Shown here one piece after another: positions 13,156-30,537 of a DNA stretch of 64,000 bases. Both the position numbers and the translations under genes were made by a program. The DNA lies in the IMG/VR virus record IMGVR_UViG_3300045988_135716, positions 1 through 64,000 of that record; one strand, 5' to 3'. The notes under the pieces are model-generated. The model ran no database searches. It was not told the origin of the DNA and worked only from the letters and a program-made list of their open reading frames with translations. This DNA comes from a virus. The stretch's first letter is position 1, and every line of letters starts with the position of its first letter.

Positions 13156-13168
13156 AACGCCACCTCCT

Positions 13169-15003: not shown

Positions 15004-15113
15004 GTAATACCTCCATTTTTTTCGTATACAAAAAGAAGCCACCAATAAGGCGACTTCTCATAAATTTCAATATTAAGTTTCTATTTCCATTATCGTATTT
15101 CATTCTACAATAT

Positions 15114-15177
15114 TTAGTGAGTGTAATTACCTCACTATACAGGTATGGAATTACCTGAATATAAATTAAATTTATAT
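15114..15177 (-). repeat. triple-hairpin element, copy 2
   Basis: Same three hairpins as 14394-14456, with 2-3 substitutions. Confidence 0.8.
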
Positions 15178-15181
15178 TATT

Positions 15182-15234
15182 TCAGCATAACATCGAATAA
15201 ATCCATGCTTTCTTATTTGATTCAGCAATATTAT
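15182..15234 (-). pseudogene. remnant of the 3' end of a gene-B paralogue
   Basis: Reads AESNKKAWIYSMLC-stop, against AELNKKAWIYSML-stop at the real gene-B end (14504-14545). Abuts the DUF262 stop codon. Confidence 0.7.
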
Positions 15235-15237
15235 ATG

Positions 15238-16230
15238 CTATAATCCTTTGCAAAGATTCTTCCAATAGTCAAATCTTCCTTGGACAGACTGAGCAGAAGA
15301 TGTACCGCTAGTACAATACTGAACATAGTCCATATTATCACCATAGCTACTTACAAATGCCTGTACAATATTTACAAATTCGTCAAAGTCCTTTTCATTC
15401 TTCACACATGTATATGCGGCATATAACATCATCGGAAGAGAAGTAGACTTGAGATTCAGTTTTTCTTCAAATTTTTCATCCAAGAATGCCAGAGCAGATT
15501 TCAATAAAATAATATCTTTCTCACCAACATGTTCATTATACCATTCTACAAATGCATCAATATCTTTTGCTCTAAATGATGTAAAATCATTATCATCTGT
15601 AGTATTAATCAGCATAAGTGTCTGTCGCACAATATCATTCGCAACATCTTTTTTCAACTGTGTTGGTGATAATACTTTTGCAAAGAATGGATGATTTGCA
15701 ACATCAAAGATAATTGCACTAACCTCATCACTCTCTAATGATTTTCTTTTCTGAGTATTGGATAATGGTTTACCAGCGTTTTGTCTGCGGAACATCTCAC
15801 GAATATCTTCATCTGTACAATCAGAAAAGATATACTGTATCATTTCATAATCGTTGATTTTATCCTGGACAACTTCATCCAACTGTGAGAATTTCTTACC
15901 TGCAATGTTATATACAGTGCCTTCAATTGATACTGGTTTCAGCTTTTGACTTAATTTGAATCCATCAGTTAAAAAATCTCTGATAGTTGTACTACGCTGA
16001 ACACCGTCAAATACATATCTGATTTTATCTTCTTTCTCTTCTGAACGAATCGGATCAACAGGATAGTTGCGAAGCATTGAGTCGATTAATAAGCTCTGCT
16101 CATAATTTTTCCATTGCCCTTCTTTTCGCTGTAATTTATGAAACATATTGTATTTTCCATTTTTCATATCTCGTGCAAATGATTTGACAGTTTGTGTCTT
16201 TCTGTTGAACTCCATATACAACACCTCCAA
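15238..16230 (-). CDS. DUF262 (ParB/Srx-fold, GmrSD N-terminal-like) protein, stand-alone
   Basis: LQRKEGQW...LIDSMLRNYPVDPI...FDGVQRSTT motif series typical of DUF262. I saw no DUF1524/His-Me nuclease motif. Confidence 0.75.
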   Translation of the reverse strand: MEVLYMEFNRKTQTVKSFARDMKNGKYNMFHKLQRKEGQWKNYEQSLLIDSMLRNYPVDPIRSEEKEDKIRYVFDGVQRSTTIRDFLTDGFKLSQKLKPVSIEGTVYNIAGKKFSQLDEVVQDKINDYEMIQYIFSDCTDEDIREMFRRQNAGKPLSNTQKRKSLESDEVSAIIFDVANHPFFAKVLSPTQLKKDVANDIVRQTLMLINTTDDNDFTSFRAKDIDAFVEWYNEHVGEKDIILLKSALAFLDEKFEEKLNLKSTSLPMMLYAAYTCVKNEKDFDEFVNIVQAFVSSYGDNMDYVQYCTSGTSSAQSVQGRFDYWKNLCKGL

Positions 16231-16491
16231 TTTTTGATATTTTTACATTATCACAATTGGAAAATATTGTAAAGGCTTACTTTAAGATAGGGCAGTAGTG
16301 AACTGCCCTTTCAGGAGAAGAGATCATATGAAAAAGTTATGTCTCTTTGAAGAGTAAATATGAAGCAAGAAAAATATATAGAAAGATAGGTATTTGCCCG
16401 AAGCGGTTTGACAGTCCGATGTCGTGCGCTTGTTTCCATATAAGGTGTGTTTGATCTACACTACGGGCTTTGATGTGGGGGTTATTTTACA

Positions 16492-17532
16492 TCAATCAGT
16501 AAATGCTTCATCAGATTCATCATTTTCATCGTTGCGAATAATATAATGGTCTAAGGTCGTAGTAACTTGATTATGTCCTAGTAATTTCTGAGCTACCTCT
16601 GGTGCTTTATGTTGAAACACGACAAGGTTTGTAGCTCTTGACTCTCTGAACAGGTGGGGATGCACCCTACGTCCAACAATTTGTGTAAACAATCCTTGAC
16701 ACCAATTATTAAAAGTACTTTCGCTCACTTGTCTAACTTCTTTTCCATCTTTAGATTTAATTACAAACATATAAGGACAGTCATCTTCGCCACGTACTTC
16801 AATCCATTTTTTCAACCATTGCATTGCATCATCACCGAATTTAAGTTTACGTGGTTTACCTACAAGAGATGCACCTTTGCAACGAATAGTGTGAGTCAAA
16901 TACTGTTTTGAAATAGTTTCATATTCATGTCCATCTTCATCCAGAACTTTGATTTTCTTTTCATTTGCAGAATAATCAATGACTTCCTTGAGTAATTGTC
17001 TAGCTTCTGCGCGTCTACATCCTGTACTATAAGAAAATGTAAGATATGCTAACATTTGCCATTCTTCTCGTTTCTCAAGTTCTTGGCATAAATTAATGTA
17101 CTCATCTGGTGTAAGAGGAACTTTTTCGTGAACATATCCAGTTTGTACTACTTTAAGCCCAATTGTAAAGTTACGAAATGTAGGATATTCTTCTTCATAC
17201 ATCATCATTACATAATTACAAAATGTACTTACAGCAGATTTTTTGAATTTAATGCCAGAATCAGAAAAGCCTCGTTTGGTTAGCCAATTAAGATATTTTT
17301 GAAATTCCTTCTTTTTAATATCTGTAAAATTCTTATCCTTGAGATTATCCCTAACCCAAGTAAAGAAAATCCTTAATCCCGATTTATATGCTGGCAAAGT
17401 TTTTACAGAAAGGTCAGCTTGATTATCAAGGTAATCCTCAACCATTTCTCTATTAAATTCATTTACTGTTTGCCATTCTTCATCTGTTATTTCAACAGAT
17501 CTATCTGCAATTTTACCATCCAATAATCTCAC
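16492..17532 (-). CDS. tyrosine recombinase/integrase
   Basis: GCRRAE (Arg), HPHLFRESRAT (H-x-x-R) and LLGHNQVTTTLDHY (His...Tyr) catalytic pattern. Confidence 0.85.
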   Translation of the reverse strand: MRLLDGKIADRSVEITDEEWQTVNEFNREMVEDYLDNQADLSVKTLPAYKSGLRIFFTWVRDNLKDKNFTDIKKKEFQKYLNWLTKRGFSDSGIKFKKSAVSTFCNYVMMMYEEEYPTFRNFTIGLKVVQTGYVHEKVPLTPDEYINLCQELEKREEWQMLAYLTFSYSTGCRRAEARQLLKEVIDYSANEKKIKVLDEDGHEYETISKQYLTHTIRCKGASLVGKPRKLKFGDDAMQWLKKWIEVRGEDDCPYMFVIKSKDGKEVRQVSESTFNNWCQGLFTQIVGRRVHPHLFRESRATNLVVFQHKAPEVAQKLLGHNQVTTTLDHYIIRNDENDESDEAFTD

Positions 17533-17575
17533 TTCCTTTCATAATTTTTTGTATAATAAAAGAAGTCACTATTTA

Positions 17576-19228
17576 TTAAGCAACTTCTTTCTTTTTAGGT
17601 CTTGTATCTCTGAGAAATGGCTTCGAATAATCTAATTCACCAACTTCTCTGATTTTAACCCAATCTATATTGTTTTGATTAAAATTCTCAATTTCTTTTT
17701 TTAACTCAAGAGAACTATCATTTAATATTTGTTTAAAATTACTTTTTGTTAAATCACATGGAAAGAGTATAAAATAAATTAGATTATGCGATTTTAACAT
17801 TTCTTCTTTTGTTTGTAATTTTAAACGATAATTTTCTTTTGATTTTTTATTTATTGATTTATTGTCATAAAACCATGTTTTATATTCTGCTAATATTCCT
17901 GCAATTTCAATATAAATGGTTTTATTATTGATTTCTATAACATAGTCACAATTCATATTGCCAGTATATTCTGAAATAAATGTTGAATATTTAACATCTC
18001 TTTTGTAATCTTTATTATATACAAGACCGTTGTCTCGTAAATATTTAGAAAACATATACTCAAACTGACTTGTTATATGTTCCCCATCATCAAAGTCAAA
18101 TGTAATACCAACACCTTGTTTTCCAAGAGTAATATCATATCTTAATAATAGATCTTGTAACTTTACTCCATAGAATTTTTTGCATGATTTATGCAATGAA
18201 GTAATATTTACCCATTCGGGACGTTCATTTATTTCTCTAGTGGTAATAAAATTTCGATTTTCAGATTTCACAAAATTACATATATCTAAAATCATATTGT
18301 CTAATTCTTCTTTTGAAGATATTTGACGATCAATCATAGATTCAATGTTAATTTCTAATCCTAGACCTTTCTTCATTTTATTTAAACTACCCCAATATTT
18401 ATTAATTTGCCCTACAGTTACTTTTCCATATCCACTACCTCTAAAGTCATCATACATAAGTGGTCTGTCATAACATTTTGACATATTTAAAATAATATCC
18501 TTACATTCTTCTTTTGTCATAATTCGAGTATATAATCCCATCCATCTTTTCAAGTCATCATTACTTTTGACAGTTTTATCAGGGCAGTGATTAATGAACC
18601 AACGAATATTTGGTAAGCCTGTATTTTTATATTCTTGTGTTCTTGATAATGAATATAAATCTATACTATCGTGATTAATTATATATTTTTTGAATTTTTC
18701 AATATATTGCTCATAATATTTTTCATTTGCGATAGATTTCGTACAATCAATTTTAGATAATTCATCTTGCAAAGTCGTATTATTTTGCTTACAAAGACTT
18801 ATTATTTTACTATAAGAACAATTAAAACCATTTTCAGTTGTGTATTCGTTATATTTAGGGAATCTATCATTATTAGAATAAAAAGATTTAATAGAATTAA
18901 TTACTGATTCAAAAGATATACCATTTTTAAAATCTTTATGTTTTGTATCATGGTCACATATATACAATCCATGATTACGTTGTATATTTTGATTATATTT
19001 ATGATATTGAAGTTTTCTCTTTTTATGGCAACAATCACATTCTACATCTATATATTGATTTGATGAAGGAAGCAAATCAGAAATTTTAATCTTAATTGTT
19101 GTTCCTCTAGGAACTCGTAATCTTCCATCTTTATCTTTGCTTCGTGGTATTTTGTAACCTAAAGATTCATAATAAGAAGTTGTAGAATTATCTAATCTAA
19201 CTTCTGTGTATTCATTTACAATTGCCAT
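17576..19228 (-). CDS. large protein with Zn-ribbon and C-terminal Vsr/DUF559-like PD-(D/E)xK signature
   Basis: CDCC...CDH cysteines, and NCDYVIEINNKTIYIEIAG resembling the D...IE-x-x-G nuclease core. Nuclease call is tentative. Confidence 0.35.
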   Translation of the reverse strand: MAIVNEYTEVRLDNSTTSYYESLGYKIPRSKDKDGRLRVPRGTTIKIKISDLLPSSNQYIDVECDCCHKKRKLQYHKYNQNIQRNHGLYICDHDTKHKDFKNGISFESVINSIKSFYSNNDRFPKYNEYTTENGFNCSYSKIISLCKQNNTTLQDELSKIDCTKSIANEKYYEQYIEKFKKYIINHDSIDLYSLSRTQEYKNTGLPNIRWFINHCPDKTVKSNDDLKRWMGLYTRIMTKEECKDIILNMSKCYDRPLMYDDFRGSGYGKVTVGQINKYWGSLNKMKKGLGLEINIESMIDRQISSKEELDNMILDICNFVKSENRNFITTREINERPEWVNITSLHKSCKKFYGVKLQDLLLRYDITLGKQGVGITFDFDDGEHITSQFEYMFSKYLRDNGLVYNKDYKRDVKYSTFISEYTGNMNCDYVIEINNKTIYIEIAGILAEYKTWFYDNKSINKKSKENYRLKLQTKEEMLKSHNLIYFILFPCDLTKSNFKQILNDSSLELKKEIENFNQNNIDWVKIREVGELDYSKPFLRDTRPKKKEVA

Positions 19229-19479
19229 TTTTAATTTCCTCCTTCTAAAGTATTTTTTGATACAATAAAAGGACTTAATGCTGTCTCACGACATGAGCCT
19301 TTATAGAAAAACAGTAGAAGAGAAGTGCATAGGTGAAATACCTCTCAAACACCAGGTAGCTACTCCCGATGTTTCCACTGTTTTCAAAATCCCAACATCA
19401 GCTATGACACTAACATTGAGCAATTTGGGTTTGTCACCCAATCATTAATTCTCCATTGAACAAAACAATCCAATGAATA

Positions 19480-19516
19480 TAAAAAGAGTGCGTAAGCTAT
19501 GACACCCACGCACTCT
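19480..19516 (-). terminator. intrinsic terminator
   Basis: 9-bp stem agagtgcgt/acgcactct followed by T5 on the minus strand. Confidence 0.7.
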
Positions 19517-19548
19517 AAAAGGAGATCTATGTCCATTATAAAGATAGA

Positions 19549-20175
19549 TTACACTTTGAAAATACGACAAAGCATATGTAAAGTTTCAATATCTTCTTTA
19601 GGAAGAGTCACCTTTACATATTCTTCATCATCCATATCACAATCTACGCAATCATGATGACAACAACAATCGTAACAATTGCCTAATTCTAAGTCATCTG
19701 CGAAATCGTCATATTCATCGTCAATATCTTCTTTCAACTCGACAAAGTAAGTTTTAGCAGTTTCTACTTGTGGTAAAAGTTGCTTACTACATTCATCCAG
19801 AATATAAGTTGCATCTGCTTCATTAAGAAGATAACCGTCTTTTCGTTTAGCAGGCTCAACCCAGATTTCTGGTGTATCATGATTACTGATTCTTGCGCAT
19901 AACGTAATTATAAATTCATCTTCATATCCATCAATCTCAGGGTCATGAAAATTTATATTAGCAAGCTCATAATCATAGTCAGTAAGAAGATTAATGATTT
20001 TTCTTGCATTATCATATTTTGCAAAGATTGAAATATCTACAGATTCATCTGACTTAGATGCATAATATCGTCTATTAAATTCAGAATCCATAGCTTCACA
20101 AAATTCATAAATATCTTCAAAACAAATAGTTGGAATTTTATTCATATAATCAGCCCTCTTATTATGCATTAACAA
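19549..20175 (-). CDS. acidic Cys-rich hypothetical protein
   Basis: Co-directional ORF; CYDCCCHHDCVDC cluster. Confidence 0.5.
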   Translation of the reverse strand: MLMHNKRADYMNKIPTICFEDIYEFCEAMDSEFNRRYYASKSDESVDISIFAKYDNARKIINLLTDYDYELANINFHDPEIDGYEDEFIITLCARISNHDTPEIWVEPAKRKDGYLLNEADATYILDECSKQLLPQVETAKTYFVELKEDIDDEYDDFADDLELGNCYDCCCHHDCVDCDMDDEEYVKVTLPKEDIETLHMLCRIFKV

Positions 20176-20464
20176 GGTCTTTAAGTGCCTTTGCTGGTTT
20201 AAACTTTGGCATTTTACATGCTTTTATCATAATAGATTGACCAGTTTGGGGATTGCGACCTTCTCTTTCAGCTCTTTCGACAACTTCAAATGTACCAAGT
20301 CCAACAATTGAAAGTTTTTCTCCTGCTTTAAGAATTTCAGCTAATGACTTAGTAAAAACTTCTAAATAAAAATCAGAATCTTTTTTGAATACTTTTTTCT
20401 CTTCATCTTCGTTCATTTCAACTGCATTTTCGTACATATGATTAATAAAATCTACTTTTGTCAT
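20162..20464 (-). CDS. HU/IHF-family DNA-binding protein
   Basis: GLGTFEVVERAEREGRNPQTGQSIMIKACKMPKFKPAKALKD matches the HU arm consensus. Confidence 0.85.
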   Translation of the reverse strand: MTKVDFINHMYENAVEMNEDEEKKVFKKDSDFYLEVFTKSLAEILKAGEKLSIVGLGTFEVVERAEREGRNPQTGQSIMIKACKMPKFKPAKALKDLVNA

Positions 20465-20536
20465 TTAAAAATTTCCTCATCTTTCATATATTTTTATATC
20501 AAAATAGGAGAGTAGCAAATGTACTCTCCATATCAA

Positions 20537-21706
20537 TTAATCCAATTGAATATCATATAAACAAACTAAACCATCCTGTCCCACAACAGATATGGTCTGT
20601 TCAGGACGATTAGTTTTTCTAATAGACATTGCATATTGGTCTGTTCCTGAGCAACATCCTGACTCAATAACCTTTGCATTATATACGGTAGTTAATCCAT
20701 TCAAATGTCTATGCCCTAATAGCACAATGTCTGGTTTAATTCCAAACATCATTGTAAAATTTTGAACAACACTTGCGGGTGCATCTTTATGACCGTGTGA
20801 TGCAAAAATATTATTTCCTCGAATATTAAACATTGCAATCTCAGAATCAATATTATTTTCACAAATATCAATGTTTTTAATATTTTGTAATCTTGCTTTC
20901 AAATAAAATGGTAATAATACATCCATATTTTCACCATCTAAAGCATCCTCTTTTTTAGGTGAAATTCTTGAATGATTACCAGGTGTAACATATACATAAA
21001 TATTATTGAAATGATTTGCAATTCTAATTAGCATTGCAGAAATTAATTCTGAAACATATTTGAATTGTTCCATTAAATCCATGTTATTTTGTAATCGAAG
21101 ATTGTTATGGATAATGCCTGACAGAATTTCACCGATGACTAGATAACAATTTTCAGATTTATGTAAATCTCTAATTTTAAGAATTTCGGATGTGAATTTT
21201 TCGATTCGTTCTTTTAGAATATCTTGATTAAATGTATTATTCCAAGTATTAATCTCAATTCCTGTGTGAATGTCAGTGAGATGTACCAATAAATCAGTGT
21301 TACTATTAAAAGTATGATATTGTACTTTTAAATCAGTTGGCTCTACATTCTCACAAATAATTCTTTTAACCATTTCAGAATAAGATTCCTTACGAGCTTC
21401 TTGCCTAATTTGACGATTATATTCAACTCTTGCGTCAGATAATTTCTGACGTTCTTTCTTTAATCTAATAATTTCATCAGATTCAGAAATACTCATTGAT
21501 GTTGGTTCATGTACCCATCCTGCATCTAAGTATTCATATAAAAGTTTACTTCCTTTACGGATAGTATCTCTATGTTCAGATTCCCCATTGTAATCTGATC
21601 TGAAATCAGCGATATCTTGCCATTCAATGTTTGAATCTTTCTGTTTACGTTTTAATAAATCTAGCTGTTGCTCTAAAAACTCAACTTTATTTATATCATC
21701 CACCAC
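20537..21706 (-). CDS. calcineurin-like metallophosphoesterase (SbcD/Mre11-like possible)
   Basis: LTDIHTG, GNHS, SHGH and GHRH motif series. Confidence 0.7.
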   Translation of the reverse strand: MVDDINKVEFLEQQLDLLKRKQKDSNIEWQDIADFRSDYNGESEHRDTIRKGSKLLYEYLDAGWVHEPTSMSISESDEIIRLKKERQKLSDARVEYNRQIRQEARKESYSEMVKRIICENVEPTDLKVQYHTFNSNTDLLVHLTDIHTGIEINTWNNTFNQDILKERIEKFTSEILKIRDLHKSENCYLVIGEILSGIIHNNLRLQNNMDLMEQFKYVSELISAMLIRIANHFNNIYVYVTPGNHSRISPKKEDALDGENMDVLLPFYLKARLQNIKNIDICENNIDSEIAMFNIRGNNIFASHGHKDAPASVVQNFTMMFGIKPDIVLLGHRHLNGLTTVYNAKVIESGCCSGTDQYAMSIRKTNRPEQTISVVGQDGLVCLYDIQLD

Positions 21707-21711
21707 CCAAC

Positions 21712-21912
21712 TTATTCTTCTTCTGGAAGTTCTACACTAATATTGAAGTTAATTGTTTCTGTTCCTTCTGGTAAGGTATCAATGACTTCTTGAGTAATGT
21801 TTTCACCTGTATCTGTATCAATAAGATTTAGGTCATGTAATGAAATATTTTTAAGCTGAATATTCTTCTTACGTGGGGTGGTTTTACTTTTAATTTCACT
21901 AATTTTGATCAT
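21712..21912 (-). CDS. hypothetical protein
   Basis: Co-directional small ORF. Confidence 0.45.
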   Translation of the reverse strand: MIKISEIKSKTTPRKKNIQLKNISLHDLNLIDTDTGENITQEVIDTLPEGTETINFNISVELPEEE

Positions 21913-21972
21913 GTTTTCTTCTCCTTGAATTTATATATTTGCATAAAAATAGAAGAGTAGTAATAACTCTTC

Positions 21973-22635
21973 TTAGATAATTTCGTCTAAACTTTTAATA
22001 ATTCTATCTGCTACCTTGTACTCGATAGCTTCTTTTGCAGATAAATACCAGTCATTCTCAAAGTTTTCATAGAATATATCTTCTGGTATATTTGTTCTTG
22101 ATAATACAAATTTACCAAGTTCATCAATTTGTCTTTGATAATTTAAAATAGCAGCAACTACATCATTATAAGAACCACTAAATTGTCCTGCTCCTTTATG
22201 AATGAGGAATTCAGCAGAAGGTAGAGTTAGTCGTTCATGACAAGCAAGATAAATAAAACATCCACTTGAAGCCGCCATACCGACATTTACTCCAACGACA
22301 GGAGTTTGACTAAGTGAGATTGTATCAACAAGACAATTATTTACTTCTAAATCTCCACCAGGACTAAAGAATACAACTTTAATTTTAGTACGTTCATTAA
22401 TAGGAATGTTCTTTTGTTTATCTTCAAAATTCCATTGCATAATCATTTTGGCATATTCCAATGTCATAGTGGTAATCTCATCGTCAATCCAGATTATTCT
22501 ATTTTCGTAATTTTTATAAAATTGAAGTAGAGATGGATCTGGTAATTGAAGGTTTTCTGCATTTTGTGGAATAGCAATATCAAGATATGCTGTATCTGCT
22601 TTTTTTTTATTTGTCATATAACACCTCTCAAACAT
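21973..22635 (-). CDS. ClpP-like serine protease
   Basis: FFSPGGDL...GMAASSGCFIYLAC...LIHKG pattern of the ClpP/S14 family. Confidence 0.75.
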   Translation of the reverse strand: MFERCYMTNKKKADTAYLDIAIPQNAENLQLPDPSLLQFYKNYENRIIWIDDEITTMTLEYAKMIMQWNFEDKQKNIPINERTKIKVVFFSPGGDLEVNNCLVDTISLSQTPVVGVNVGMAASSGCFIYLACHERLTLPSAEFLIHKGAGQFSGSYNDVVAAILNYQRQIDELGKFVLSRTNIPEDIFYENFENDWYLSAKEAIEYKVADRIIKSLDEII

Positions 22636-23560
22636 ATGTATATACTTTATTATTTTTGATGTGAGAAATTGTTTGTACGCTTACATCATATGTATTAGCA
22701 ATGGCAGTCAAAGACATACAGTCAGATAATATTTGATTTTTTATTTCCTTAACTTGATTTAACGTAAGTTTTGAGTTGTTATTTTTCTCTCCTCTTAGTC
22801 TTCCGTTTGATTTTTGAAAAACTAAATCTTTGGTATATTTCGTCCATGTTTTGTGATTCCTTATATCTGAAATAGTTTTTCTATTTACTCCAAATTTGTT
22901 ACCTATTTCTGTATCACTAAAACCATTGTTAATACATTCAATTACATCAACTATATTTTCATCAGTTAATTTATTTAAACCATTACGTCTACCTTTTGTA
23001 CTCGGAAAACAAATATCTTTTGTTAAATATTTCCATGAATGTCCGCTTTTAATACTTGAAACAACACTTTTATTAACATCGTATTTTTTAGATATTTCAG
23101 TATTAGATAATTTGCCATCTATTAAGTCATTAATTATATTTTTTACTTGTTGTTCTGTCAATTTAGAATAGAAACAATTTTCTCCTACATATTTACCTTT
23201 TAATGTATTGGAAATTTTTGATTTTGTTTCATCTGATAACATAGACATATCAGTAGTTGGCATGATATTATATCCTAAATTATCATCAGTACAATTAAAT
23301 TTATTAATATAAAATTGTTCTTTTTCTCTTAAAATATTTTCATCGCACAATTCTACAATTTTGAACTCAAAATTGTCTTTCCCGTGTTTATTCCATGCAT
23401 TTTGAAGATGCTCATTCGTATGAGAATTTTTATTTAATTTATTTAGATGCTGTTTCCATCTAGTATGAATATCTATTGAACTTCCAATGTATATTTTACT
23501 ATTAACGATATTTTTAATTTGATATACGCCTATTAATTTTTCTTTTGCCATAATCATCAC
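22628..23560 (-). CDS. GIY-YIG homing endonuclease with repeated HTH DNA-binding modules
   Basis: GVYQIKN...KIYIGSS...R...H...N...E motifs. The C-terminal half has three similar HTH-like repeats (SHIKNNK, SDIRNHK, SSIKSGH). Confidence 0.85.
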   Translation of the reverse strand: MMIMAKEKLIGVYQIKNIVNSKIYIGSSIDIHTRWKQHLNKLNKNSHTNEHLQNAWNKHGKDNFEFKIVELCDENILREKEQFYINKFNCTDDNLGYNIMPTTDMSMLSDETKSKISNTLKGKYVGENCFYSKLTEQQVKNIINDLIDGKLSNTEISKKYDVNKSVVSSIKSGHSWKYLTKDICFPSTKGRRNGLNKLTDENIVDVIECINNGFSDTEIGNKFGVNRKTISDIRNHKTWTKYTKDLVFQKSNGRLRGEKNNNSKLTLNQVKEIKNQILSDCMSLTAIANTYDVSVQTISHIKNNKVYTYV

Positions 23561-23605
23561 CTTGTCCTTTCGTTGTATTATTAGTGAATATAAAAAGACT
23601 GCCGA

Positions 23606-23782
23606 TTACTCAGCAGTCAATTGTTTTAAATCTTGTACAAATTTTTCTGTTTCTTCAAAGAAGAAAATTGTTGCATTTTTTAATTTGTGGTTTTTCTGCA
23701 AATCAACTATTGGATTTCCACAATGTAATAATTGTTTTGCAAGAAAACTATTGAAAATAGGTTTTGTTTTAATGATATACAC
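23606..23782 (-). CDS. small hypothetical protein (GTG or ATT start)
   Basis: 59-codon open frame, just under the track cutoff. GAGGTG lies 6 nt before ATT 23773; an in-frame GTG at 23782 sits inside that SD. Terminator hairpin overlaps the stop. Confidence 0.4.
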   Translation of the reverse strand: MYIIKTKPIFNSFLAKQLLHCGNPIVDLQKNHKLKNATIFFFEETEKFVQDLKQLTAE

Positions 23783-23792
23783 CTCATTTTAT

Positions 23793-25025
23793 TTAATCTA
23801 ACAAATCTGCCATTGCAGCTGTTTCACTACGTTCAGTTTTTAATAGTTGTACATATCCAAATTTCTCATTGCCTGCAAGTTTTTGAACAGCCGATAATAA
23901 ACCATTATTCATCCTAAAAAGAGCAGAATCAGTTTGTTTAAAATCTCCATTCATCCATAGAGCAGATCCTTCACCAACACGACCAATTAATAATTGAACA
24001 TGTTCTTTTGTAAGATTTTCTGCTTCACTTACATAAATTATAGTATTTTTGATATCTCTTCCTCGAATATATCCAAGATGTTCAACATCAACAGTTCCTT
24101 CCAGCATTTTCAATTCAAGACCAGATTCTCCACCAAGATGATCTGCTAATGGCATTGCAAATGGGAGAAGTTTAGAAAATTTGTCCCCAGGAAGGTACCC
24201 AATTTCTTCGGCATCTTTTACACCAATTGTATTTCTGACATACAATAACTTATCAAATTTACCATCCTCGATAAGTTTTAAAGCATTTGCAATCATTAGG
24301 AAGTCTTTACCTGAACCGAATTTCCCTGAAATAATTTTAATTGTTTCATTTGAATTTTGTAACATATCAAATGCCAATACTTGTTGCGGATTTCTTGGTT
24401 TAACTCTTCCGTTGAAATTGCTTTTTATTTGTTTATAAGATAATGCAGAATATTCTTCGCCATTCCATTTACGATAATCAACAACTTCACCATCACTCTT
24501 ACGAATAATCAAATATTCATTTAGAAGAGAATCATACATATTCTCATTTGTATGTAAATAAAAATAACTCATTTCTTCATCAGAAAGAGTTACATCCTTA
24601 TATCCTGTATATTCATCAAGATTCTTAACAAGATTAAGTTCTTGCGTTCCTTTTGTGGGAAGTTTAAAAATATTTTTTGAGATGAATTTACAATTAAGAT
24701 CATCTGTGCAAACGATAATGGAAGAGGATTGATTATACCAATAAGCAGAAGCTAGAATGATATTATCTGGTGTTTCATCCAATGTAAAATCATTAATAAT
24801 TTTTCTGATTTCTGGTGTATATGCAATTACTTCATAATTTTCACTTTGATCAAGTAATCTTGCAATTGACCTCGCTTTATATTTTACATCCCCATCTTTA
24901 TGACCTGATGTTTTAATCGACTCAATTTCTTCAAGAGTCTTCTGAGAAATAACAAATTCCTCTTTGAATGCTGCACTTTGTAAATTTAATAGTGCATTGG
25001 TATCCAGAAATAATTTATATTCCAA
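23793..25025 (-). CDS. PhoH-like ATPase with N-terminal PIN domain (YlaK-like)
   Basis: LFLDTNALLNL (PIN), SGKFGSGKDF (P-loop), GYLPGDKFSKL and GYIRGRDI...SEAENLT motifs. Confidence 0.8.
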   Translation of the reverse strand: MEYKLFLDTNALLNLQSAAFKEEFVISQKTLEEIESIKTSGHKDGDVKYKARSIARLLDQSENYEVIAYTPEIRKIINDFTLDETPDNIILASAYWYNQSSSIIVCTDDLNCKFISKNIFKLPTKGTQELNLVKNLDEYTGYKDVTLSDEEMSYFYLHTNENMYDSLLNEYLIIRKSDGEVVDYRKWNGEEYSALSYKQIKSNFNGRVKPRNPQQVLAFDMLQNSNETIKIISGKFGSGKDFLMIANALKLIEDGKFDKLLYVRNTIGVKDAEEIGYLPGDKFSKLLPFAMPLADHLGGESGLELKMLEGTVDVEHLGYIRGRDIKNTIIYVSEAENLTKEHVQLLIGRVGEGSALWMNGDFKQTDSALFRMNNGLLSAVQKLAGNEKFGYVQLLKTERSETAAMADLLD

Positions 25026-25290: not shown

Positions 25291-25379
25291 CGTACAGGGT
25301 AGGATTTGAACCCACGGATGGTTTTATCCATCAAATGCTTTCAAGGCATTCGCATTAAACCTGACTCTGCCACCTGTAC
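25291..25379 (-). tRNA. tRNA-Ser (anticodon UGA), class II with long variable arm
   Basis: Folded by hand: acceptor GTACAGG/CCTGTAC, D arm GCA/TGC, anticodon stem AATGC/GCATT with loop CTTGAAA, variable stem GATGG/CCATC, T arm GTGGG-TTCAAAT-CCTAC. Confidence 0.85.
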
Positions 25380-25511
25380 TGATTTTATCCAACCGCCATG
25401 AGTAGTAGCGGTGATGTTTTTTATGATATATCAAACATACTATTAAAACATATTTTATTAGTCGAATAACGTAATAATCGACACTCATTATTGGATTTTT
25501 ATAATCAAATA

Positions 25512-25540
25512 TTGAATAATCGCATCATAAGTTGTATAAT
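25512..25540 (+). promoter_or_regulatory. sigma-70-type promoter
   Basis: TTGAAT, 17-nt spacer, TATAAT. Confidence 0.55.
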
Positions 25541-25569
25541 TGTAAGAAAAATCCATTGGATGTATACAA

Positions 25570-25767
25570 ATGAGAGATACAACTTTAGATCTTAATCAAA
25601 TTAAAGAATTAGCTGATTATGTAGCTAAAAGAAGTGCTTCTGTTGGTTCTCAACCACTTCAAGTAAAAACATTCGTTAAAAAGTATATGGAAGCATATAC
25701 AGAAGCATTCAACGAAATTTCTGAACTTAATGATCAAAGAAGAAAAGAACAATCTGAAAATTTATAA
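25570..25767 (+). CDS. hypothetical protein (lone plus-strand ORF inside the minus arm)
   Basis: 65-aa helical ORF downstream of the promoter at 25512. Confidence 0.45.
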   Translation: MRDTTLDLNQIKELADYVAKRSASVGSQPLQVKTFVKKYMEAYTEAFNEISELNDQRRKEQSENL

Positions 25768-25929
25768 ATTAATTTTATTATTCTCATTAATTTCTTGAAT
25801 AATTCTATCAAAAAGATGTTTTGTTGTAGCTAAAGTGAATTCTTCATGTGAGAGAATTGTCAAAATTTTATCTTTGATTTTATTTTCATTATCATGCATA
25901 TAAGGTATTCCATCTTTTTCTACATACAT
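25762..25929 (-). CDS. small hypothetical protein
   Basis: 55-aa ORF MYVEKDGIPYMHDN..., convergent with and overlapping the 3' end of 25570..25767. Confidence 0.35.
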   Translation of the reverse strand: MYVEKDGIPYMHDNENKIKDKILTILSHEEFTLATTKHLFDRIIQEINENNKINL

Positions 25930-26020
25930 AATTTACCAACTTTCTAACTCATTTAGGGGACATCTCACAACGTCCCCTATCGCCAGTATATTTAAGAGAG
26001 TTTGATTATTCCTGGCTTAA

Positions 26021-26098
26021 TTGATATATTAGGCTTTGAACCTAAATCTACCAAATCCATACGGAAACAATCGCTCTAACCAATTGAGCTATATATCA
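26021..26098 (-). tRNA. tRNA-like element with non-foldable anticodon arm
   Basis: Canonical acceptor TGATATA/TATATCA, D arm GCTC-AATTGGTTA-GAGC and T arm TTAGG-TTCAAAG-CCTAA. The 26 nt between the D and T arms (normal is about 23) give no 5-bp stem with a 7-nt loop. Confidence 0.5.
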
Positions 26099-27016
26099 TT
26101 ATTATTATTATAAATGCTGAGATTACACATTTATACAGAAGTTCTTTTAGAACATTATGAGTTCTTTCCGTATCCACTATATACCTTACGCATATATAGT
26201 AAACTTCCACAACCGCCTTTTTGAAAGAGTGGCATTTCTCTTTTACTACATGACTACTCTGATTTTATTATTCCATTAACACCGCCGTGCTATAAATCTC
26301 CGCTAAGAGAACTGTGCAAACTCGATCAAACATCTCAAAGTCTTGCGAGACTTATTAATGTCCATATTATACTCTTATAAGTACTATGGAATTAGGTTGT
26401 TTTCACCATGTAGAGGTGTAGACTTTCGCTTTGTATGTAATATTTAAGTATATAAATATTCTTTTACCTTTTAAACGTAAACGGCATTCCACCATTCCCG
26501 ATAATATTATTCTACTTTTTTACAACAAGTTTAAGTCCAAGTTACAGAAGATGTGCTACACCAGACGCTTTCATTCCTTTTGAGAACAAAAATACATCAC
26601 ACCTTCATGTCTTTCAGTTATAATCCCTACTAAACGTTCATATAAGTAATATACTCATATAAATGGATAATGCACTCGATTAATAATTTCTCGCACTATT
26701 TATCCTCCTGATTCACCATTATATGCATATAAGTTTGCATGAGCTATCTGATTTGCGGTCAAAAAGTAATTCTCAGCGGTCGCCCCTAAATCACTTTATC
26801 GCTCCTTATAATACATACTATTTCCGCATAGACTCAATTGCGAAACGCAACCTTTTGAGTTACTGGTATGTCAGTTTTGCTTGAATTGACTATATTTCTA
26901 TAGCGATAGGGTGTAAATCTATCTTTATATACCTCACGATATACTATCTGTGTCAAGCCACATAATCGTAACAATAACATTGTAAAATTTATGATGCGTC
27001 ATAAAACGCATCAAAT
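26099..27016. ncRNA. ORF-free, hairpin-rich segment between tRNA genes; candidate large structured RNA
   Basis: No ORF of 60 aa or more in any frame over about 0.9 kb. Several short stems (aagtct-tgcg-agactt, ttgcg-aaa-cgcaa, gcactg/cagtgc nearby). Flanked by tRNA genes. Strand undetermined. Confidence 0.45.
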
Positions 27017-27087
27017 AGCGGATATTGGATTTGCACCAATGTTCTCTTGGTTATGAGCCAAGCGAGTTAACTACTTCTCTAATCCGC
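27017..27087 (-). tRNA. tRNA-Met-type (anticodon CAU), slightly aberrant
   Basis: Anticodon stem CTTGG/CCAAG with loop CTCATAA; acceptor GCGGAT/ATCCGC; T arm ATTGG-TGCAAAT-CCAAT. The T loop reads TGC rather than TTC, and there is a 7:66 mismatch. Confidence 0.6.
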
Positions 27088-27244
27088 ATTGTTATATTTT
27101 TAATCAACGGAAGCACTGTAGCGAAAGGGGAAGAATCAGTGCAACCGCCGATTATATACCAATTAGTCGCCAAACTAATCATAACTGTATTTCTATCGAG
27201 ATACTCTCAGATATTCATAAGAAACTAAGATTTCTCCTTTTTAA

Positions 27245-27544
27245 CTAATTTTCAAAATAACCATTGAGTTTTCTGTTATAATGTCGTGTGATTTTTGGCT
27301 TTACCCAAATTTTTTCATCACATTGAATATCTTCATATCTATGAATTTCTTGTGATGGAACATATTTACATTCCAAACTCAATCCGTCCAATAATTTAAC
27401 CACTGTTTTATCAGTGGGAGTAGTAGAAGATAAATAGTCGAAAATAATACCCTCTGCCGATTTGAAAACTTTTCGGACTGTCGCTATATCTATATCTTCT
27501 TTTTTTGAAATCTCTTTGATAATATTTTCTTGATTAATCGTCAA
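27245..27544 (-). CDS. divergent HU/IHF-like DNA-binding protein
   Basis: N-terminus INQENIIKEISKKEDIDIATVRKVFKSAEGIIFDYL follows the HU helix-turn-helix pattern. The arm region is divergent. Confidence 0.4.
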   Translation of the reverse strand: MTINQENIIKEISKKEDIDIATVRKVFKSAEGIIFDYLSSTTPTDKTVVKLLDGLSLECKYVPSQEIHRYEDIQCDEKIWVKPKITRHYNRKLNGYFEN

Positions 27545-27651: not shown

Positions 27652-27728
27652 AAAATATTTTCGCCCATGCGCAATGGGTGTTTTTATTTTTGGTAAAATA
27701 TTTTCGCCCATGCGCAATGGGTGTTTTT
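27652..27728 (+). terminator. tandem duplicated intrinsic terminator (two identical 34-nt units, 43-bp period)
   Basis: aaaatattttCGCCCATgcgcaATGGGTGttttt occurs at 27652-27685 and 27695-27728. The U-tract follows the stem only on the plus strand. Confidence 0.6.
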
Positions 27729-27729
27729 G

Positions 27730-30537
27730 CTAAATCGACATTCTTTTTTTTCTACGATATTCTCTATCAATTCTACGCTTTTCTTTTAATTGACATTCTT
27801 CGCATCGACAGGATTTAGTATCTTTTATATCAACCTCAAACCATTCTCCACAATCAACGCACTGAATAAATTTAGTTTTCTTTATAGGAATATTAGACTC
27901 AAGATTTTTTACAACGTATTGACCATAACAAAACCAAAATAATTGTTTTGATCTTTTGTTATTTCCATATAAATATTTAACAAGCATGTCTGTTAATTCT
28001 TCATTTGAATAGCCAAACTTTGAAAATTCATCTCGAATTTGACAAGCAACATATCTCAGATTATCAATATATTCATCTTTCATATTGATTTTGTACCTGT
28101 ACTTTTTATTTAATTCATCATATAAATCAGATACTTCTTTTTTACAAGTTGTATTAACATTGCTCATCATTTTATGATAATCAAGTTTTCCAAGTTGTAA
28201 TCCCCTTGTGTTAATTGCCTTATTTGGAATTACGCTATAAAGTTTATTTACAAAACTTCCATTTCTTTTTTCTACTTGAGTCTTATTTTCATCCTCACTA
28301 ACTTTTTTATCCTTTGCATATTCAAAAAATGCAGGTAATTTTTTATTAGTAAATTCCTTAATCTGTGCAGATATTTCTTTTGGAAACTCTGGTTTATATA
28401 GTGTCTTGGCGAAGTCAATAACAAAATTATTCTGACAACATAATCGCTTTACACAATTAGTAGCATGTTGTTTCTCTTCATCTGTACCGTCAATGAAAAT
28501 GTCACTGTTCCAAATCTTTGAAATATTATTACTATAAATGCCGATATTTCCACCAGTAAATGCAGCATTTAATCCTGCATAAATATTTTTATTATTCAAC
28601 TCGACTGGTTTTGCTTTTTGCATATTATAATATAATGGAACAATACCATTCATATTTCTTTCAGCAATACGAATAAAATCTTGATCAGCTACAACAAGAG
28701 ATTTATCACCGTCAACATCAAATTGAAGAATCTTACTAATTAAATCATATGTACTGGTATAAACGGCATTAGTTGTAAACCATTTTCTGATTTTTTCAAC
28801 TCTTTCTCCGTATACTTTATTGGCAACATTAAATCGTATAGCATGTTCTTTATATAAATGTGGACTTCTAAGACAATCTAATTTATCATAATATTTGAAT
28901 AACCAACAAAATACTTCTTTATCTGCTAATAATCCTGTTGGGGTTTCAATGTGTCCAAACCAATATTCACATGCGGCATAAAAATCAGGAAGTAAAAATG
29001 TATATTTCCCATTAATGTCTAATCGACCACTACGATATTGTTTGAGAAGACTATTTTTTACTTCTCTAATAACATCTTTTGCATATGTATCATTTAATAA
29101 CGCAGGATATATTTTAACCGCTTTTTGAAACGGTGTCATATTATCGTTATATGGGGTAATTCCTAATACTTCCATCATTGTTTTTTCTGATGTACATATA
29201 TTAGTAATCTTTTCGATTGACTTAGATGCTAAAAGTAATATTTCTTCATCCGATATATTGGTAAGAGTTTGCAACATCTGATAGTTGATTTTTGCATTTT
29301 TAACTCTATCTTCTTCTGTATTACATCTACCAGCTTGACAATTATATTTTTTAAAGTATGTTTTGTATTCATCCCATGAATCATAGAACTTGTACATTTT
29401 AAACTGACTCTTTGTAAATATAATTTGAATATTTTCTTCGATGACATCGTGTTCTTTACCATATATATCTTTGATGATAGGAGAGTGGCTGTTTACTTTT
29501 ATAAATTTTACAAAATCAAATACACCTAACAATCCTTTTATCCATGGCGCACGAAACATTGTATTTTTATCCATAAGACACGGTAAGATCATTCCAGCTC
29601 CATCAGTGTGTGGAATTGGCACTAAACCAGTTTTTCTTTCAATTGAATAATTTGTCTCGTCTATAAAATCAAATGTACCAGGAACATTAGTTTCAAAATC
29701 GTCAATTACAATACATCTATCAATATCAAAATCAACCCATTGATCTGTTGCTGAATTTGCTAATGCCATGTAAGCCAAATGTTTATTAACATTATTACCA
29801 CCTTTAGAATTGATTTTATCAATCGTTAATCCACACATTACGGTTTTTTCTACTTGATTCCATACAGATTCTTTTATAAAAACTGCTTTCTTTTTACGAA
29901 TTTGTCCTGCTGATGATGTAAAATATCTATATTTTTCACCTTTATACATAAAACCATAAAAAGATAAATCTTTAAAAACATCGAAATAGTAAACCTGTAC
30001 TACGATAAGAGCATCTGTAAGTTCATCTTTTTTAATTCCAATAGTTCTGGTAAGAGAAGATTCAAAAACTGAAATAACATTTGTATCTTTCAATTCTTCT
30101 TGTCTTAAATATCGCAATGGTATATCTTTTTTTATTTCATTTTCTTCATTATATTTTGCAGTGTTCTCTTTTTCATAAACCTTAGTTGCAAGGATTTTTA
30201 ACAATTTCTCTTTTGACTCATTAGCTTTCTTTCTTTTATGCGCAATTAAACGATTCCAATAATTTAGTTGATTTCTGAGCTGATTAAATTGATCCATATC
30301 AGTTATGGATGTTTTTTCTATATCACTCAAAATATATTCAATATCTTTTTTAATCAACTCATATGTATCATCAGAACATCCAATAGTATTAAAATCTTTT
30401 TTAATTCCATCAAGTTTATTACTAATATAGTTTCGTTCTCTTCGATATTTACAATTCATTTCGTGAAGATACTTTTCTGAATTACTATAAAAATGACCAG
30501 TATCTACACTATACATATTAATTTGCGTGTCTAACAT
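27730..30537 (-). CDS. single-subunit two-barrel RNA polymerase, YonO / RNAi-RdRP-like
   Basis: FDVDGD (DxDGD metal-binding loop, nt 28705-28719) about 45 aa after CLRSPHLYKEH. Upstream is MFRAPWIKGLLGV (F-R-x-P-x-x-KG, nt 29533-29556). C-terminal CxxC...CxxC ribbon. Confidence 0.65.
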   Translation of the reverse strand: MLDTQINMYSVDTGHFYSNSEKYLHEMNCKYRRERNYISNKLDGIKKDFNTIGCSDDTYELIKKDIEYILSDIEKTSITDMDQFNQLRNQLNYWNRLIAHKRKKANESKEKLLKILATKVYEKENTAKYNEENEIKKDIPLRYLRQEELKDTNVISVFESSLTRTIGIKKDELTDALIVVQVYYFDVFKDLSFYGFMYKGEKYRYFTSSAGQIRKKKAVFIKESVWNQVEKTVMCGLTIDKINSKGGNNVNKHLAYMALANSATDQWVDFDIDRCIVIDDFETNVPGTFDFIDETNYSIERKTGLVPIPHTDGAGMILPCLMDKNTMFRAPWIKGLLGVFDFVKFIKVNSHSPIIKDIYGKEHDVIEENIQIIFTKSQFKMYKFYDSWDEYKTYFKKYNCQAGRCNTEEDRVKNAKINYQMLQTLTNISDEEILLLASKSIEKITNICTSEKTMMEVLGITPYNDNMTPFQKAVKIYPALLNDTYAKDVIREVKNSLLKQYRSGRLDINGKYTFLLPDFYAACEYWFGHIETPTGLLADKEVFCWLFKYYDKLDCLRSPHLYKEHAIRFNVANKVYGERVEKIRKWFTTNAVYTSTYDLISKILQFDVDGDKSLVVADQDFIRIAERNMNGIVPLYYNMQKAKPVELNNKNIYAGLNAAFTGGNIGIYSNNISKIWNSDIFIDGTDEEKQHATNCVKRLCCQNNFVIDFAKTLYKPEFPKEISAQIKEFTNKKLPAFFEYAKDKKVSEDENKTQVEKRNGSFVNKLYSVIPNKAINTRGLQLGKLDYHKMMSNVNTTCKKEVSDLYDELNKKYRYKINMKDEYIDNLRYVACQIRDEFSKFGYSNEELTDMLVKYLYGNNKRSKQLFWFCYGQYVVKNLESNIPIKKTKFIQCVDCGEWFEVDIKDTKSCRCEECQLKEKRRIDREYRRKKRMSI

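What the first reader, a model, noticed from the sequence alone, without database searches (positions are those of the whole stretch)
27730..30537. 935-aa single-chain two-barrel RNA polymerase homologue (YonO / eukaryotic RdRP-like)
The protein carries FDVDGD (nt 28705-28719), preceded about 45 residues earlier by CLRSPHLYKEH. Further upstream is MFRAPWIKGLLGV.

These match, in order and spacing, the hallmarks described for the YonO / RNAi-RdRP branch of double-psi beta-barrel polymerases. Those hallmarks are the F-Q/x-I/x-R..G.KG motif of the first barrel, and R-N/S-P-x-h-H followed by the DbDGD metal loop of the second. SPbeta YonO and the crAss-like virion RNAP are the characterised examples.

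I saw no multi-subunit or T7-like RNAP in the window. This enzyme would imply phage-autonomous transcription with unknown promoters.
Basis: partly seen in the sequence, partly recalled or inferred. Interest (0 to 1): 0.7.

Follow-up and report, generated by a model that had tools for sequence, protein, structure and literature searches.

The report
YonO-type single-chain phage RNA polymerase
This gene encodes a clear relative of YonO, the known one-protein RNA polymerase that Bacillus phage SPβ uses to transcribe its late genes; here it sits in a large uncultivated gut (Lachnospiraceae) phage, so it is a sound but largely expected find.

Summary
A 935-aa ORF lies at 27730-30537 on the minus strand and carries all three quoted motifs.

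- The protein passes Pfam's RdRP family (PF05183) cutoff.
- It is about 44% identical to SPβ YonO over about 89% of its length.
- All eight residues universal to two-barrel polymerases are invariant in 112 homologues.
- A confident AlphaFold model (pLDDT 89.7) matches only cellular-type RdRPs (RDR2, QDE-1) in the PDB (E 3e-16 to 3e-10).

Gene order mirrors SPβ: polymerase, terminator-like hairpins, HU-fold gene, a non-coding RNA island, then packaging and structural genes on one strand. By homology the enzyme is most likely a DNA-dependent RNA polymerase for the phage's late operon. Activity and promoter are untested.

It is not new as a kind. The exact protein is already in NCBI nr, labelled "RNA dependent RNA polymerase". 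The family has over 1,200 clusters at 50% identity, mostly in Lachnospiraceae prophages.

The more interesting by-product is the RNA island after the polymerase, which holds a GOLLD RNA and three tRNAs. Some relatives carry ROOL or other structured RNAs there. This is the position where SPβ's YonO-dependent transcript starts.

The parts
27730..30537 (-). Gene for a 935-aa YonO-type single-chain two-barrel RNA polymerase
   Evidence: ORF. Pfam PF05183 above cutoff. phrog_8308 E 1e-244. About 44% identity to SPβ YonO. AF2 model matched by Foldseek to RDR2/QDE-1.
29521..29610 (-). First (β-like) double-psi barrel catalytic segment: HTDGAG (D312) and MFRAPWIKGLLGV (R329, K334)
   Evidence: D312, R329 and K334 are invariant in 112 homologues. 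The spacing R-x4-K matches QDE-1 R738/K743 (PMC2919709). The segment lies on β-strands 299-339 of the model.
28705..28875 (-). Second (β'-like) barrel: LRSPHL (R557, P559) and the metal-binding DVDGD (D607/D609/D611)
   Evidence: These residues are invariant in 112 homologues. The Asp triad is essential in SPβ YonO, where the 3D>3N mutant is inactive (PMC5467207).
27793..27861 (-). C-terminal CxxC...CxxC zinc-ribbon-like element (C893, C896, C912, C915), followed by a basic tail
   Evidence: The cysteines are conserved in at least 90% of 112 homologues, including SPβ YonO. The model shows two β-hairpins at 888-903. The last 25 residues contain 11 K/R.
27662..27723 (-). Tandem pair of identical terminator-like hairpins (CACCCATTGCGCATGGGCG x2, A-tract before and T-tract after) immediately after the polymerase stop codon
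   Evidence: Two exact copies against 0 expected. The terminator scan lists both. Fold z-score is -3.2. SPβ has an annotated stem-loop at the same place after yonO.
27245..27544 (-). 99-aa divergent HU/IHF-fold protein gene, the conserved neighbour of the polymerase gene
   Evidence: A homologous ORF of about 98 aa follows the polymerase gene in nearly all related loci examined. hhalign against canonical HU gives 91% probability, E 1e-6, over the full length. There is no direct Pfam or BLASTP hit. SPβ, D-1873 and Perkons have a canonical HU here.
27101..27154 (-). Long hairpin directly upstream of tRNA-Met. It is preceded by an extended -10-like TGGTATATAAT
   Evidence: Fold. The block is conserved in L004. 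An analogous hairpin with covariation precedes the first tRNA in relatives.
25291..27088 (-). Co-oriented RNA island: tRNA-Met (27016-27088), hairpin (26992-27013), GOLLD RNA (about 26110-26961; Rfam core 26114-26607), tRNA-Arg (26021-26098), tRNA-Ser (25291-25379). It occupies the position of SPβ's YonO-transcribed non-coding leader
   Evidence: ARAGORN. Rfam GOLLD 172 bits against a cutoff of 150. GOLLD homology extends to about 26961.
1115..25025 (-). Downstream same-strand gene train, the predicted late operon. It includes PhoH (23793-25025), a GIY-YIG endonuclease, a ClpP-like protease (21973-22635), a YonJ-like exonuclease (20537-21706), canonical HU (20162-20464), an integrase-family gene, large terminase (10375-12147) and a virion protein (1115-1849)
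   Evidence: PHROGs and Pfam. The order matches SPβ yonN-yonK-yonJ...yonF-yonE and close relatives. GC skew is uniformly negative over 1-34 kb.

Best explanation
The ORF encodes an orthologue, in the broad sense, of SPβ YonO. YonO is a single polypeptide whose two double-psi β-barrels form one active site like that of multisubunit RNA polymerases and eukaryotic RNAi RdRPs.

Shown here: family membership, the fold, intact catalytic residues, and SPβ-like gene order.

Inferred by homology: the enzyme is a Mg2+-dependent, DNA-templated, highly processive RNA polymerase. It is made early or mid-infection by the host polymerase, with that transcription stopped by the tandem hairpins after the gene. 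It then transcribes the long same-strand late gene train (packaging, structural and lysis genes) that begins just downstream, possibly starting with the tRNA/GOLLD island.

The always-adjacent HU-fold protein is a candidate DNA-bending cofactor for promoter use. This is speculative.
For: - Pfam RdRP above the gathering cutoff.
- About 44% identity over 89% of the length to SPβ YonO, 51% to Clostridium phage D-1873 and 43% to phage Perkons.
- The eight universal two-barrel residues are invariant in 112 sequences (definition in PMC2919709).
- AF2 model pLDDT 89.7, pTM 0.83.
- The top 14 Foldseek PDB hits are all RDR2 or QDE-1, with probability 1.0.
- YonO biochemistry and late-operon dependence are established for SPβ (PMC5467207).
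- Synteny is conserved from SPβ to this phage: polymerase, hairpin, HU-like gene, RNA slot, then PhoH, exonuclease, terminase and portal.
Against: - No activity, template preference or transcript data exist for this protein or its clade.
- 44% identity leaves room for changed specificity.
- The closest solved folds are RNA-dependent enzymes.
- No promoter could be identified.
- In the 76%-identical relatives the RNA slot opens with a respectable host-type promoter (TTGGCT-N16-TATAAT, my reading). At least part of the downstream region may therefore be host-transcribed.
Confidence: 0.85

Rival explanations
1. It is a true RNA-dependent RNA polymerase, as databases label it. It would copy or amplify an RNA, for example a phage transcript or the neighbouring GOLLD RNA, rather than transcribe DNA.
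For: The Pfam family is named RdRP. NCBI nr names this exact protein 'RNA dependent RNA polymerase'. The nearest solved folds are RDR2 and QDE-1.
Against: The only characterised close relative, SPβ YonO, is strictly DNA-dependent, more so than E. coli RNAP (PMC5467207). The database names are transferred from the Pfam family name, not from experiment. Sequence identity to the RdRPs is only 12-13%, against 44% to YonO.
Confidence: 0.05
2. It is a dedicated polymerase for the adjacent non-coding RNA island (tRNAs, GOLLD/ROOL) rather than for the late protein-coding genes.
For: tRNAs lie co-oriented within 4 kb downstream in 33 of 40 viral polymerase clusters. GOLLD or ROOL is present in 8 of 40. 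The SPβ YonO TSS precedes more than 1 kb of non-coding RNA.
Against: In species-representative bacterial genomes only 18 of 75 polymerase loci have downstream tRNAs, 1 has ROOL and none has GOLLD, yet all keep the polymerase. In SPβ, 37 late protein genes depend on YonO.
Confidence: 0.07
3. It is a virion-packaged early polymerase injected with the DNA, like N4 vRNAP or crAss-like gp66.
For: crAss-like phage protein pieces give weak fold matches in BFVD, E about 5e-4. Two-barrel virion polymerases exist (from my own knowledge; Drobysheva et al. 2021).
Against: The protein is 935 aa and free-standing, not a domain of a giant virion protein. It lies upstream of, not inside, the structural module. 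In SPβ the homologue is synthesised after induction and is needed for late genes. No crAss polymerase structure is among the 50 PDB fold matches listed.
Confidence: 0.03

Closest known systems
YonO of Bacillus phage SPβ (DNA-directed RNA polymerase YonO; Forrest et al. 2017, PMC5467207)
   Same: Single chain. Same order of β-like then β'-like barrel. Identical catalytic residues, including the DxDGD triad. Same C-terminal CxxC...CxxC element. About 44% identity over about 830 residues. Same genomic position: after early genes, followed by a hairpin, an HU-type gene, a non-coding RNA stretch, and then exonuclease, terminase and portal.
   Different: About 95 residues longer, mainly through a helical (coiled-coil-like) insertion at about residues 45-135 and a 10-residue insertion near residue 680. 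The host is a Lachnospiraceae rather than Bacillus. The neighbouring HU-fold protein is highly divergent. The RNA slot holds tRNAs plus GOLLD instead of SPβ's leader with the DUF3800-VIII motif.
Eukaryotic cellular RdRPs of RNA silencing (QDE-1, 2J7N; RDR2, 7ROZ/7W82)
   Same: Overall two-barrel fold across 800-920 aligned columns, TM 0.41-0.51, probability 1.0. Same Pfam family. Same eight active-site residues.
   Different: Only 12-13% identity. Those enzymes copy RNA (QDE-1 also copies ssDNA) in silencing pathways, whereas the phage branch characterised so far transcribes dsDNA.
crAss-like phage virion RNA polymerase (phi14:2 gp66)
   Same: A phage-encoded two-barrel polymerase of the RdRP-like branch (from my own knowledge). 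Weak fold matches to crAss-like proteins.
   Different: gp66 is part of a very large virion-packaged protein used for early transcription. The protein here is small and free-standing, and by homology it is late-acting. This relationship was not resolved.
Uncharacterised YonO-like proteins of Clostridium phage D-1873, Psychrobacillus phage Perkons and Enterocloster phages
   Same: D-1873 is the closest GenBank phage homologue (51.5%), with the same polymerase-HU-PhoH-tRNA order. Perkons has polymerase-HU-terminase-portal.
   Different: All are annotated as hypothetical protein or RdRP. None has been studied experimentally.

Membership tests
YonO-type single-chain two-barrel RNAP | Full-length sequence homology to SPβ YonO | tested here: met
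   tblastn E = 0, 44% identity, 89% of the query covered. The alignment is collinear from N-terminus to C-terminal Zn ribbon.
YonO-type single-chain two-barrel RNAP | Eight universal two-barrel active-site residues (one Asp plus R/K in the first barrel; R-x-P plus DxDxD in the second) | tested here: met
   D312, R329, K334, R557, P559, D607, D609 and D611 are invariant in 112 homologues. The definition is from PMC2919709. The assignment rests on motif pattern and spacing. 3D clustering was not measured.
YonO-type single-chain two-barrel RNAP | Two double-psi β-barrels in one polypeptide, with RdRP-like overall fold | tested here: met
   AF2 pLDDT 89.7. The top 14 Foldseek hits are RDR2 or QDE-1 at probability 1.0. 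Weak 80-90-residue matches to Rpb1 barrel segments follow.
YonO-type single-chain two-barrel RNAP | Genomic placement at the head of the late or structural gene cluster, next to an HU-type gene | tested here: met
YonO-type single-chain two-barrel RNAP | DNA-dependent, processive RNA synthesis that requires the Asp triad | not testable with these tools
   Known only for SPβ YonO.
YonO-type single-chain two-barrel RNAP | Required for late-gene transcription from a specific start site | not testable with these tools
   The SPβ TSS was bracketed to L001:12254-12449. No equivalent promoter could be identified here.
Pfam PF05183 (RdRP) | Score above Pfam's gathering threshold | tested here: met
   46.8 bits against 23.8. 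The same family is precomputed for most homologues.
Eukaryotic RNAi RdRP (functional class) | RNA-templated RNA synthesis | not testable with these tools
   Fold similarity only. The closest characterised relative is DNA-dependent.
T7-like single-subunit RNAP | Pol I-like right-hand fold, Pfam RNA_pol domain | tested here: not met
   No such Pfam hit even at E up to 1. No such structure is among the 50 fold matches listed.
Multisubunit RNAP (β/β') | Separate large subunits with flap, clamp, trigger loop and similar domains | tested here: not met
   Single 935-aa chain. There are only marginal (E above 0.6) barrel-sized matches to Rpb1.
crAss-like virion RNAP | Polymerase module embedded in a giant virion-packaged protein | tested here: not met
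   Free-standing 935-aa ORF. There are only weak BFVD matches to crAss-like proteins.
NCBIfam curated YonO model | Hit to a curated NCBI family model | tested here: inconclusive
   Neither this protein nor SPβ YonO hits any NCBIfam model, so the library holds no model for the family.

The most novel reading that the evidence does not exclude
The giant 'nanocage' RNAs GOLLD and ROOL, and other structured RNAs of unknown function (DUF3800-type, drum, skipping-rope, and a roughly 280-nt unannotated element), would be cargo of a specific slot at the head of the YonO-dependent late transcription unit. In this phage GOLLD would be made by the phage's own pause-insensitive single-chain polymerase as the promoter-proximal part of the late transcript. 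That would tie GOLLD's known rise late in infection to a defined polymerase and give a handle on its function.
Probability: 0.25. Interest if true: 0.6.

Novelty: new member of a known kind. Interest (0 to 1): 0.3.

Why it matters
This confirms that SPβ-style late transcription by a minimal two-barrel polymerase extends well beyond Bacillus. It is found in large, abundant gut Lachnospiraceae phages and prophages. It also provides a high-confidence model and a diverse alignment for an enzyme family with no solved structure.

Two open questions remain for the whole family: the promoter, and any cofactor. The universally adjacent HU-fold gene is a concrete cofactor candidate. The co-location with GOLLD and ROOL offers a testable route to learn when, and by which polymerase, these RNAs are made.

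Tried and rejected
- **Direct sequence search of the PDB.** Searching with the protein and with a 112-sequence profile gave nothing relevant. The link to solved RdRPs is visible only by fold or through the Pfam model.
- **Megablast of the gene against GenBank phages.** No match.
- **Identifying the 99-aa neighbour as HU.** I first took it for HU. Pfam, PHROGs and BLASTP against YonN all fail. Only profile-profile comparison supports an HU fold.
- **Promoter hunting.**
  - The sigma-70 scan gave no more sites than shuffles (63 against 63).
  - The apparent TTGACA/TATA near the GOLLD 5' end shows compensatory changes and is not conserved, so it is RNA structure.
  - The conserved block AAATCTTAGTTTCTTATGAATAT resembled a sequence at the SPβ TSS bracket. 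However, the loose motif is common by chance, and the exact block flanks insertions as an inverted pair in L004 and L031. It is therefore probably a mobile-element end.
  - I could not convert the published SPβ TSS coordinate to the sequence exactly. It is only bracketed by the primers.
- **A universal polymerase-GOLLD/ROOL link.** Rejected. ROOL is in 1 of 75 species-representative genome loci and GOLLD in none. No similarity of SPβ's leader to GOLLD or ROOL was found even at relaxed thresholds.
- **NCBIfam.** It has no YonO model.
Full report
**Observation.** The window contains one uninterrupted ORF at 27730..30537 on the minus strand. It is 935 aa, starts with ATG, and has a GGGGG ribosome-binding site about 6 nt upstream. 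All three quoted peptides are present. MFRAPWIKGLLGV is aa 327-339. CLRSPHLYKEH is aa 555-565. FDVDGD is aa 606-611, and DVDGD occupies exactly nt 28705-28719.

**Family assignment by sequence.**
- Pfam places the protein in PF05183 (RdRP) at 46.8 bits against a gathering cutoff of 23.8, E 2.4e-12. There is no T7-like or other polymerase domain even at E up to 1.
- PHROGs gives phrog_8308, E 1e-244, function unknown.
- tblastn against GenBank phages finds 37 records. The best is Clostridium phage D-1873 (51.5%). Psychrobacillus phage Perkons follows (43%, annotated RdRP). The whole SPβ group is at about 44% identity over about 89% of the query, E = 0. That group includes the yonO genes annotated 'DNA-directed RNA polymerase' in the Goe phages.
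- An eight-sequence alignment is collinear from the N-terminus to a C-terminal CxxC...CxxC element shared with SPβ YonO.
- Ruprich-Robert and Thuriaux define eight residues that are invariant in all two-barrel polymerases. In QDE-1 these are D709, R738, K743, R962, P964, D1007, D1009 and D1011 (PMC2919709). By pattern and spacing they correspond here to D312, R329, K334, R557, P559, D607, D609 and D611. All eight are invariant in a 112-sequence alignment that spans 42-96% identity to the query.

**Family assignment by structure.** AlphaFold2 on that alignment gave mean pLDDT 89.7 and pTM 0.83.
- Foldseek against the PDB returned 14 matches with E at or below 0.001, all at probability 1.0. Every one is a cellular-type RdRP: maize or Arabidopsis RDR2, or Neurospora or Thielavia QDE-1. 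They have E 3e-16 to 3e-10, TM 0.37-0.51 (0.41-0.51 for the thirteen strongest), and mostly 800-920 aligned columns.
- The next matches are marginal 80-90-residue pieces of Rpb1-type barrels.
- Against viral predicted structures, the best hits are phage proteins named RdRP (E 2e-29 and 1.5e-27). crAss-like proteins appear only weakly.
It is not met.
- Sequence-only searches of the PDB, single or profile, find nothing. No YonO-like structure has therefore been deposited.

**What the family does.** Forrest et al. (PMC5467207) established the following for SPβ YonO:
- It is a strict DNA-dependent, highly processive, pause-insensitive RNA polymerase.
- The Asp triad is essential.
- A yonO deletion abolishes plaque formation and silences 37 late genes.
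- The promoter, and any need for cofactors, were left open.

I found no later paper that resolves this.

**Context in the window.** All substantial genes from about 33.4 kb down to 1.1 kb are on the minus strand, with uniformly negative GC skew. In transcription order they are:
- dCMP deaminase and two small Cys-rich ORFs;
- the polymerase;
- two identical terminator-like hairpins;
- a 99-aa ORF;
- an RNA island of tRNA-Met, GOLLD, tRNA-Arg and tRNA-Ser;
- PhoH, a GIY-YIG endonuclease, a ClpP-like protease, a YonJ-like exonuclease, canonical HU and an integrase-family gene;
- large terminase and virion proteins.

This mirrors SPβ, which has yonO, a stem-loop, yonN (HU), about 1.7 kb with no annotated gene, and then yonK, yonJ (exonuclease), yonF (terminase) and yonE (portal). 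It also mirrors D-1873 and Perkons. Close metagenomic relatives show the same order.

The 99-aa ORF has no direct hit to HU. However, a homologous ORF follows the polymerase gene in nearly all related loci examined. Profile-profile comparison with canonical HU gives 91% probability, E 1e-6, over the full length. A polymerase plus HU-fold gene pair is therefore conserved across the family. That makes this small protein a candidate cofactor, though this is inference only.

**Where late transcription might start.** The primer-extension primers in the SPβ paper's supplement map to L001:12231-12254 and about 12449-12475. The YonO-dependent start therefore lies 0.3-0.5 kb after yonN and 1.2-1.4 kb before yonK. 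SPβ's late transcript thus begins with more than 1 kb of non-coding RNA. That stretch contains a DUF3800-VIII motif and, just upstream of the bracket, a sub-threshold skipping-rope hit. The window's tRNA/GOLLD island is in the equivalent position.

I could not identify a promoter.
- The sigma-70 scan is at background.
- The promoter-like hexamers at the GOLLD 5' end are RNA stems with compensatory changes.
- A conserved block that resembled SPβ sequence is better explained as a mobile-element end.
- In the 76%-identity relatives the slot opens with a decent host-type promoter, by my reading.

Whether the island is read by the phage polymerase or the host polymerase remains open.

**Distribution and novelty.**
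- The exact protein is already in NCBI nr as DAR46144.1, 'MAG TPA: RNA dependent RNA polymerase [Caudoviricetes sp.]'. It occurs on at least 10 contigs up to 181 kb, and its 90% cluster has 383 members.
- Near-identical polymerases occur on IMG/VR contigs of 113-171 kb.
- An exhaustive search of 1.84 billion cluster representatives finds 1,205 clusters at E up to 1e-3, and 375 at E up to 1e-30.
- In species-representative bacterial genomes the closest relatives (up to 72%) are overwhelmingly in Lachnospiraceae: Eubacterium, Lachnospira, Acetatifactor, Roseburia, Mediterraneibacter and Bariatricus. Several are isolates. The host is therefore very likely a gut Lachnospiraceae.
- NCBI already names the Bacillus cluster 'DNA-directed RNA polymerase YonO'. 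NCBIfam has no model for the family.

This is a new, uncharacterised member of a known kind. It differs from YonO mainly by a helical N-terminal insertion at about residues 45-135.

**By-product: the RNA slot.**
- Among 40 polymerase clusters from viral contigs, co-oriented tRNAs lie within 4 kb downstream in 33. GOLLD is present in 5 and ROOL in 3. Presence or absence varies even among near-identical polymerases. Rfam confirmed the negatives in 26 representatives.
- Other occupants of the slot are DUF3800-I (L063), drum (D-1873), and a roughly 280-nt conserved element not in Rfam. That element has 21 of 39 predicted pairs supported by double compensatory changes.
- In the independent genome sample the slot is poorer. 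tRNAs are present in 18 of 75 loci, ROOL in 1 and GOLLD in none. The association is therefore a tendency of the large phages, not a rule.
- No indexed paper mentions YonO together with GOLLD or ROOL.
- The literature notes that both RNAs sit near tRNAs in phages, that GOLLD rises during lysis, and that one GOLLD lies downstream of a tRNA-Met (PMC12286853 and PMC5737381). The arrangement seen here matches that description.

**Verdict.** The most likely mechanism is YonO-like DNA-dependent late transcription, with confidence about 0.85 for the family and activity class and lower for the exact regulon. Novelty is modest and interest is about 0.3. The most novel reading not excluded is that GOLLD-type and ROOL-type RNAs are promoter-proximal products of this polymerase's late operon, at about 25%.

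Noticed in passing
window 26110-26961 (Rfam core 26114-26607), minus strand; flanked by tRNA-Met 27016-27088, tRNA-Arg 26021-26098 and tRNA-Ser 25291-25379: A GOLLD RNA (172 bits, cutoff 150) sits inside a co-oriented tRNA island immediately downstream of the polymerase and HU-like gene pair. Homology to relatives' GOLLD extends to about 850 nt. In relatives, GOLLD starts directly after a tRNA(-like) 3' end, which suggests co-transcription.
   Followed up: yes
L005:13318-13935; L068/L071/L074/L075/L077/L080 at about 10.0-10.6 kb; L165:9918-10365: ROOL RNA occupies the same post-polymerase slot in other relatives. GOLLD and ROOL thus look like alternative cargo of one site, and presence varies among near-identical polymerases.
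   Followed up: yes
L023:7320-7600 and homologous stretches in L014, L017, L021, L033, L043, L058, L062, L085, L093, L140, L166: A conserved non-coding element of about 280 nt lies in the same slot and ends in a long hairpin before a tRNA. 21 of 39 predicted pairs keep pairing through double changes. There is no Rfam hit in the members that were scanned. It is a candidate unannotated structured RNA and is absent from the window.
   Followed up: partly
window 27662-27680 and 27705-27723: Two identical copies of the hairpin CACCCATTGCGCATGGGCG, with an A-tract before and a T-tract after, lie right after the polymerase stop codon. They probably insulate the late region from upstream host-polymerase transcription.
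   Followed up: partly
window 27245-27544 (minus); canonical HU at 20162-20464 (minus): The phage encodes two HU-fold proteins. One is a highly divergent 99-aa protein that always lies next to the polymerase gene and lacks the usual R-N-P arm motif. The other is a canonical PF00216 HU further downstream.
   Followed up: yes
window 27204-27226; L004 and L031: The block AAATCTTAGTTTCTTATGAATAT is single-copy in the window. In L004 and L031 it occurs as an inverted pair flanking inserted segments; in L031 my reading is that the insert encodes a TnpB/IS605-like ORF. It looks like mobile-element ends or an insertion hotspot.
   Followed up: partly
window 22628-23560 and 32302-33462 (minus); L067, L085; phi3T-type phages: GIY-YIG homing endonuclease genes lie on both sides of the polymerase locus. 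In some relatives the polymerase gene itself is split by an inserted ORF, as in the yonO_1/yonO_2 annotations.
   Followed up: no
window 30549-30776 and 30779-31012 (minus): Two small Cys-rich ORFs (75 and 77 aa) lie directly upstream of the polymerase gene. One has a weak DUF2175 hit, and that ORF's position is conserved in the closest relative (L004). Function unknown.
   Followed up: no
L001:11976-12085 and 13330-13395; L002:15347-15454; L063:7386-7493; L089:4376-4450: Other 'orphan' structured RNAs cluster around YonO loci: skipping-rope (sub-threshold) and DUF3800-VIII in SPβ, drum in D-1873, DUF3800-I in L063, and RAGATH-18 just upstream of the polymerase in L089.
   Followed up: partly
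window 16492-17532 (minus), 61555-62388 (+), 60314-61363 (+), 46024-47202 (+): There are two integrase-family genes, one inside the late-strand gene train. There is also a GmrSD-like nuclease N-domain protein, and sub-threshold similarity to a DNA polymerase III β-clamp. Antirepressor-type genes lie near the strand switch at about 34-39 kb.
   Followed up: no
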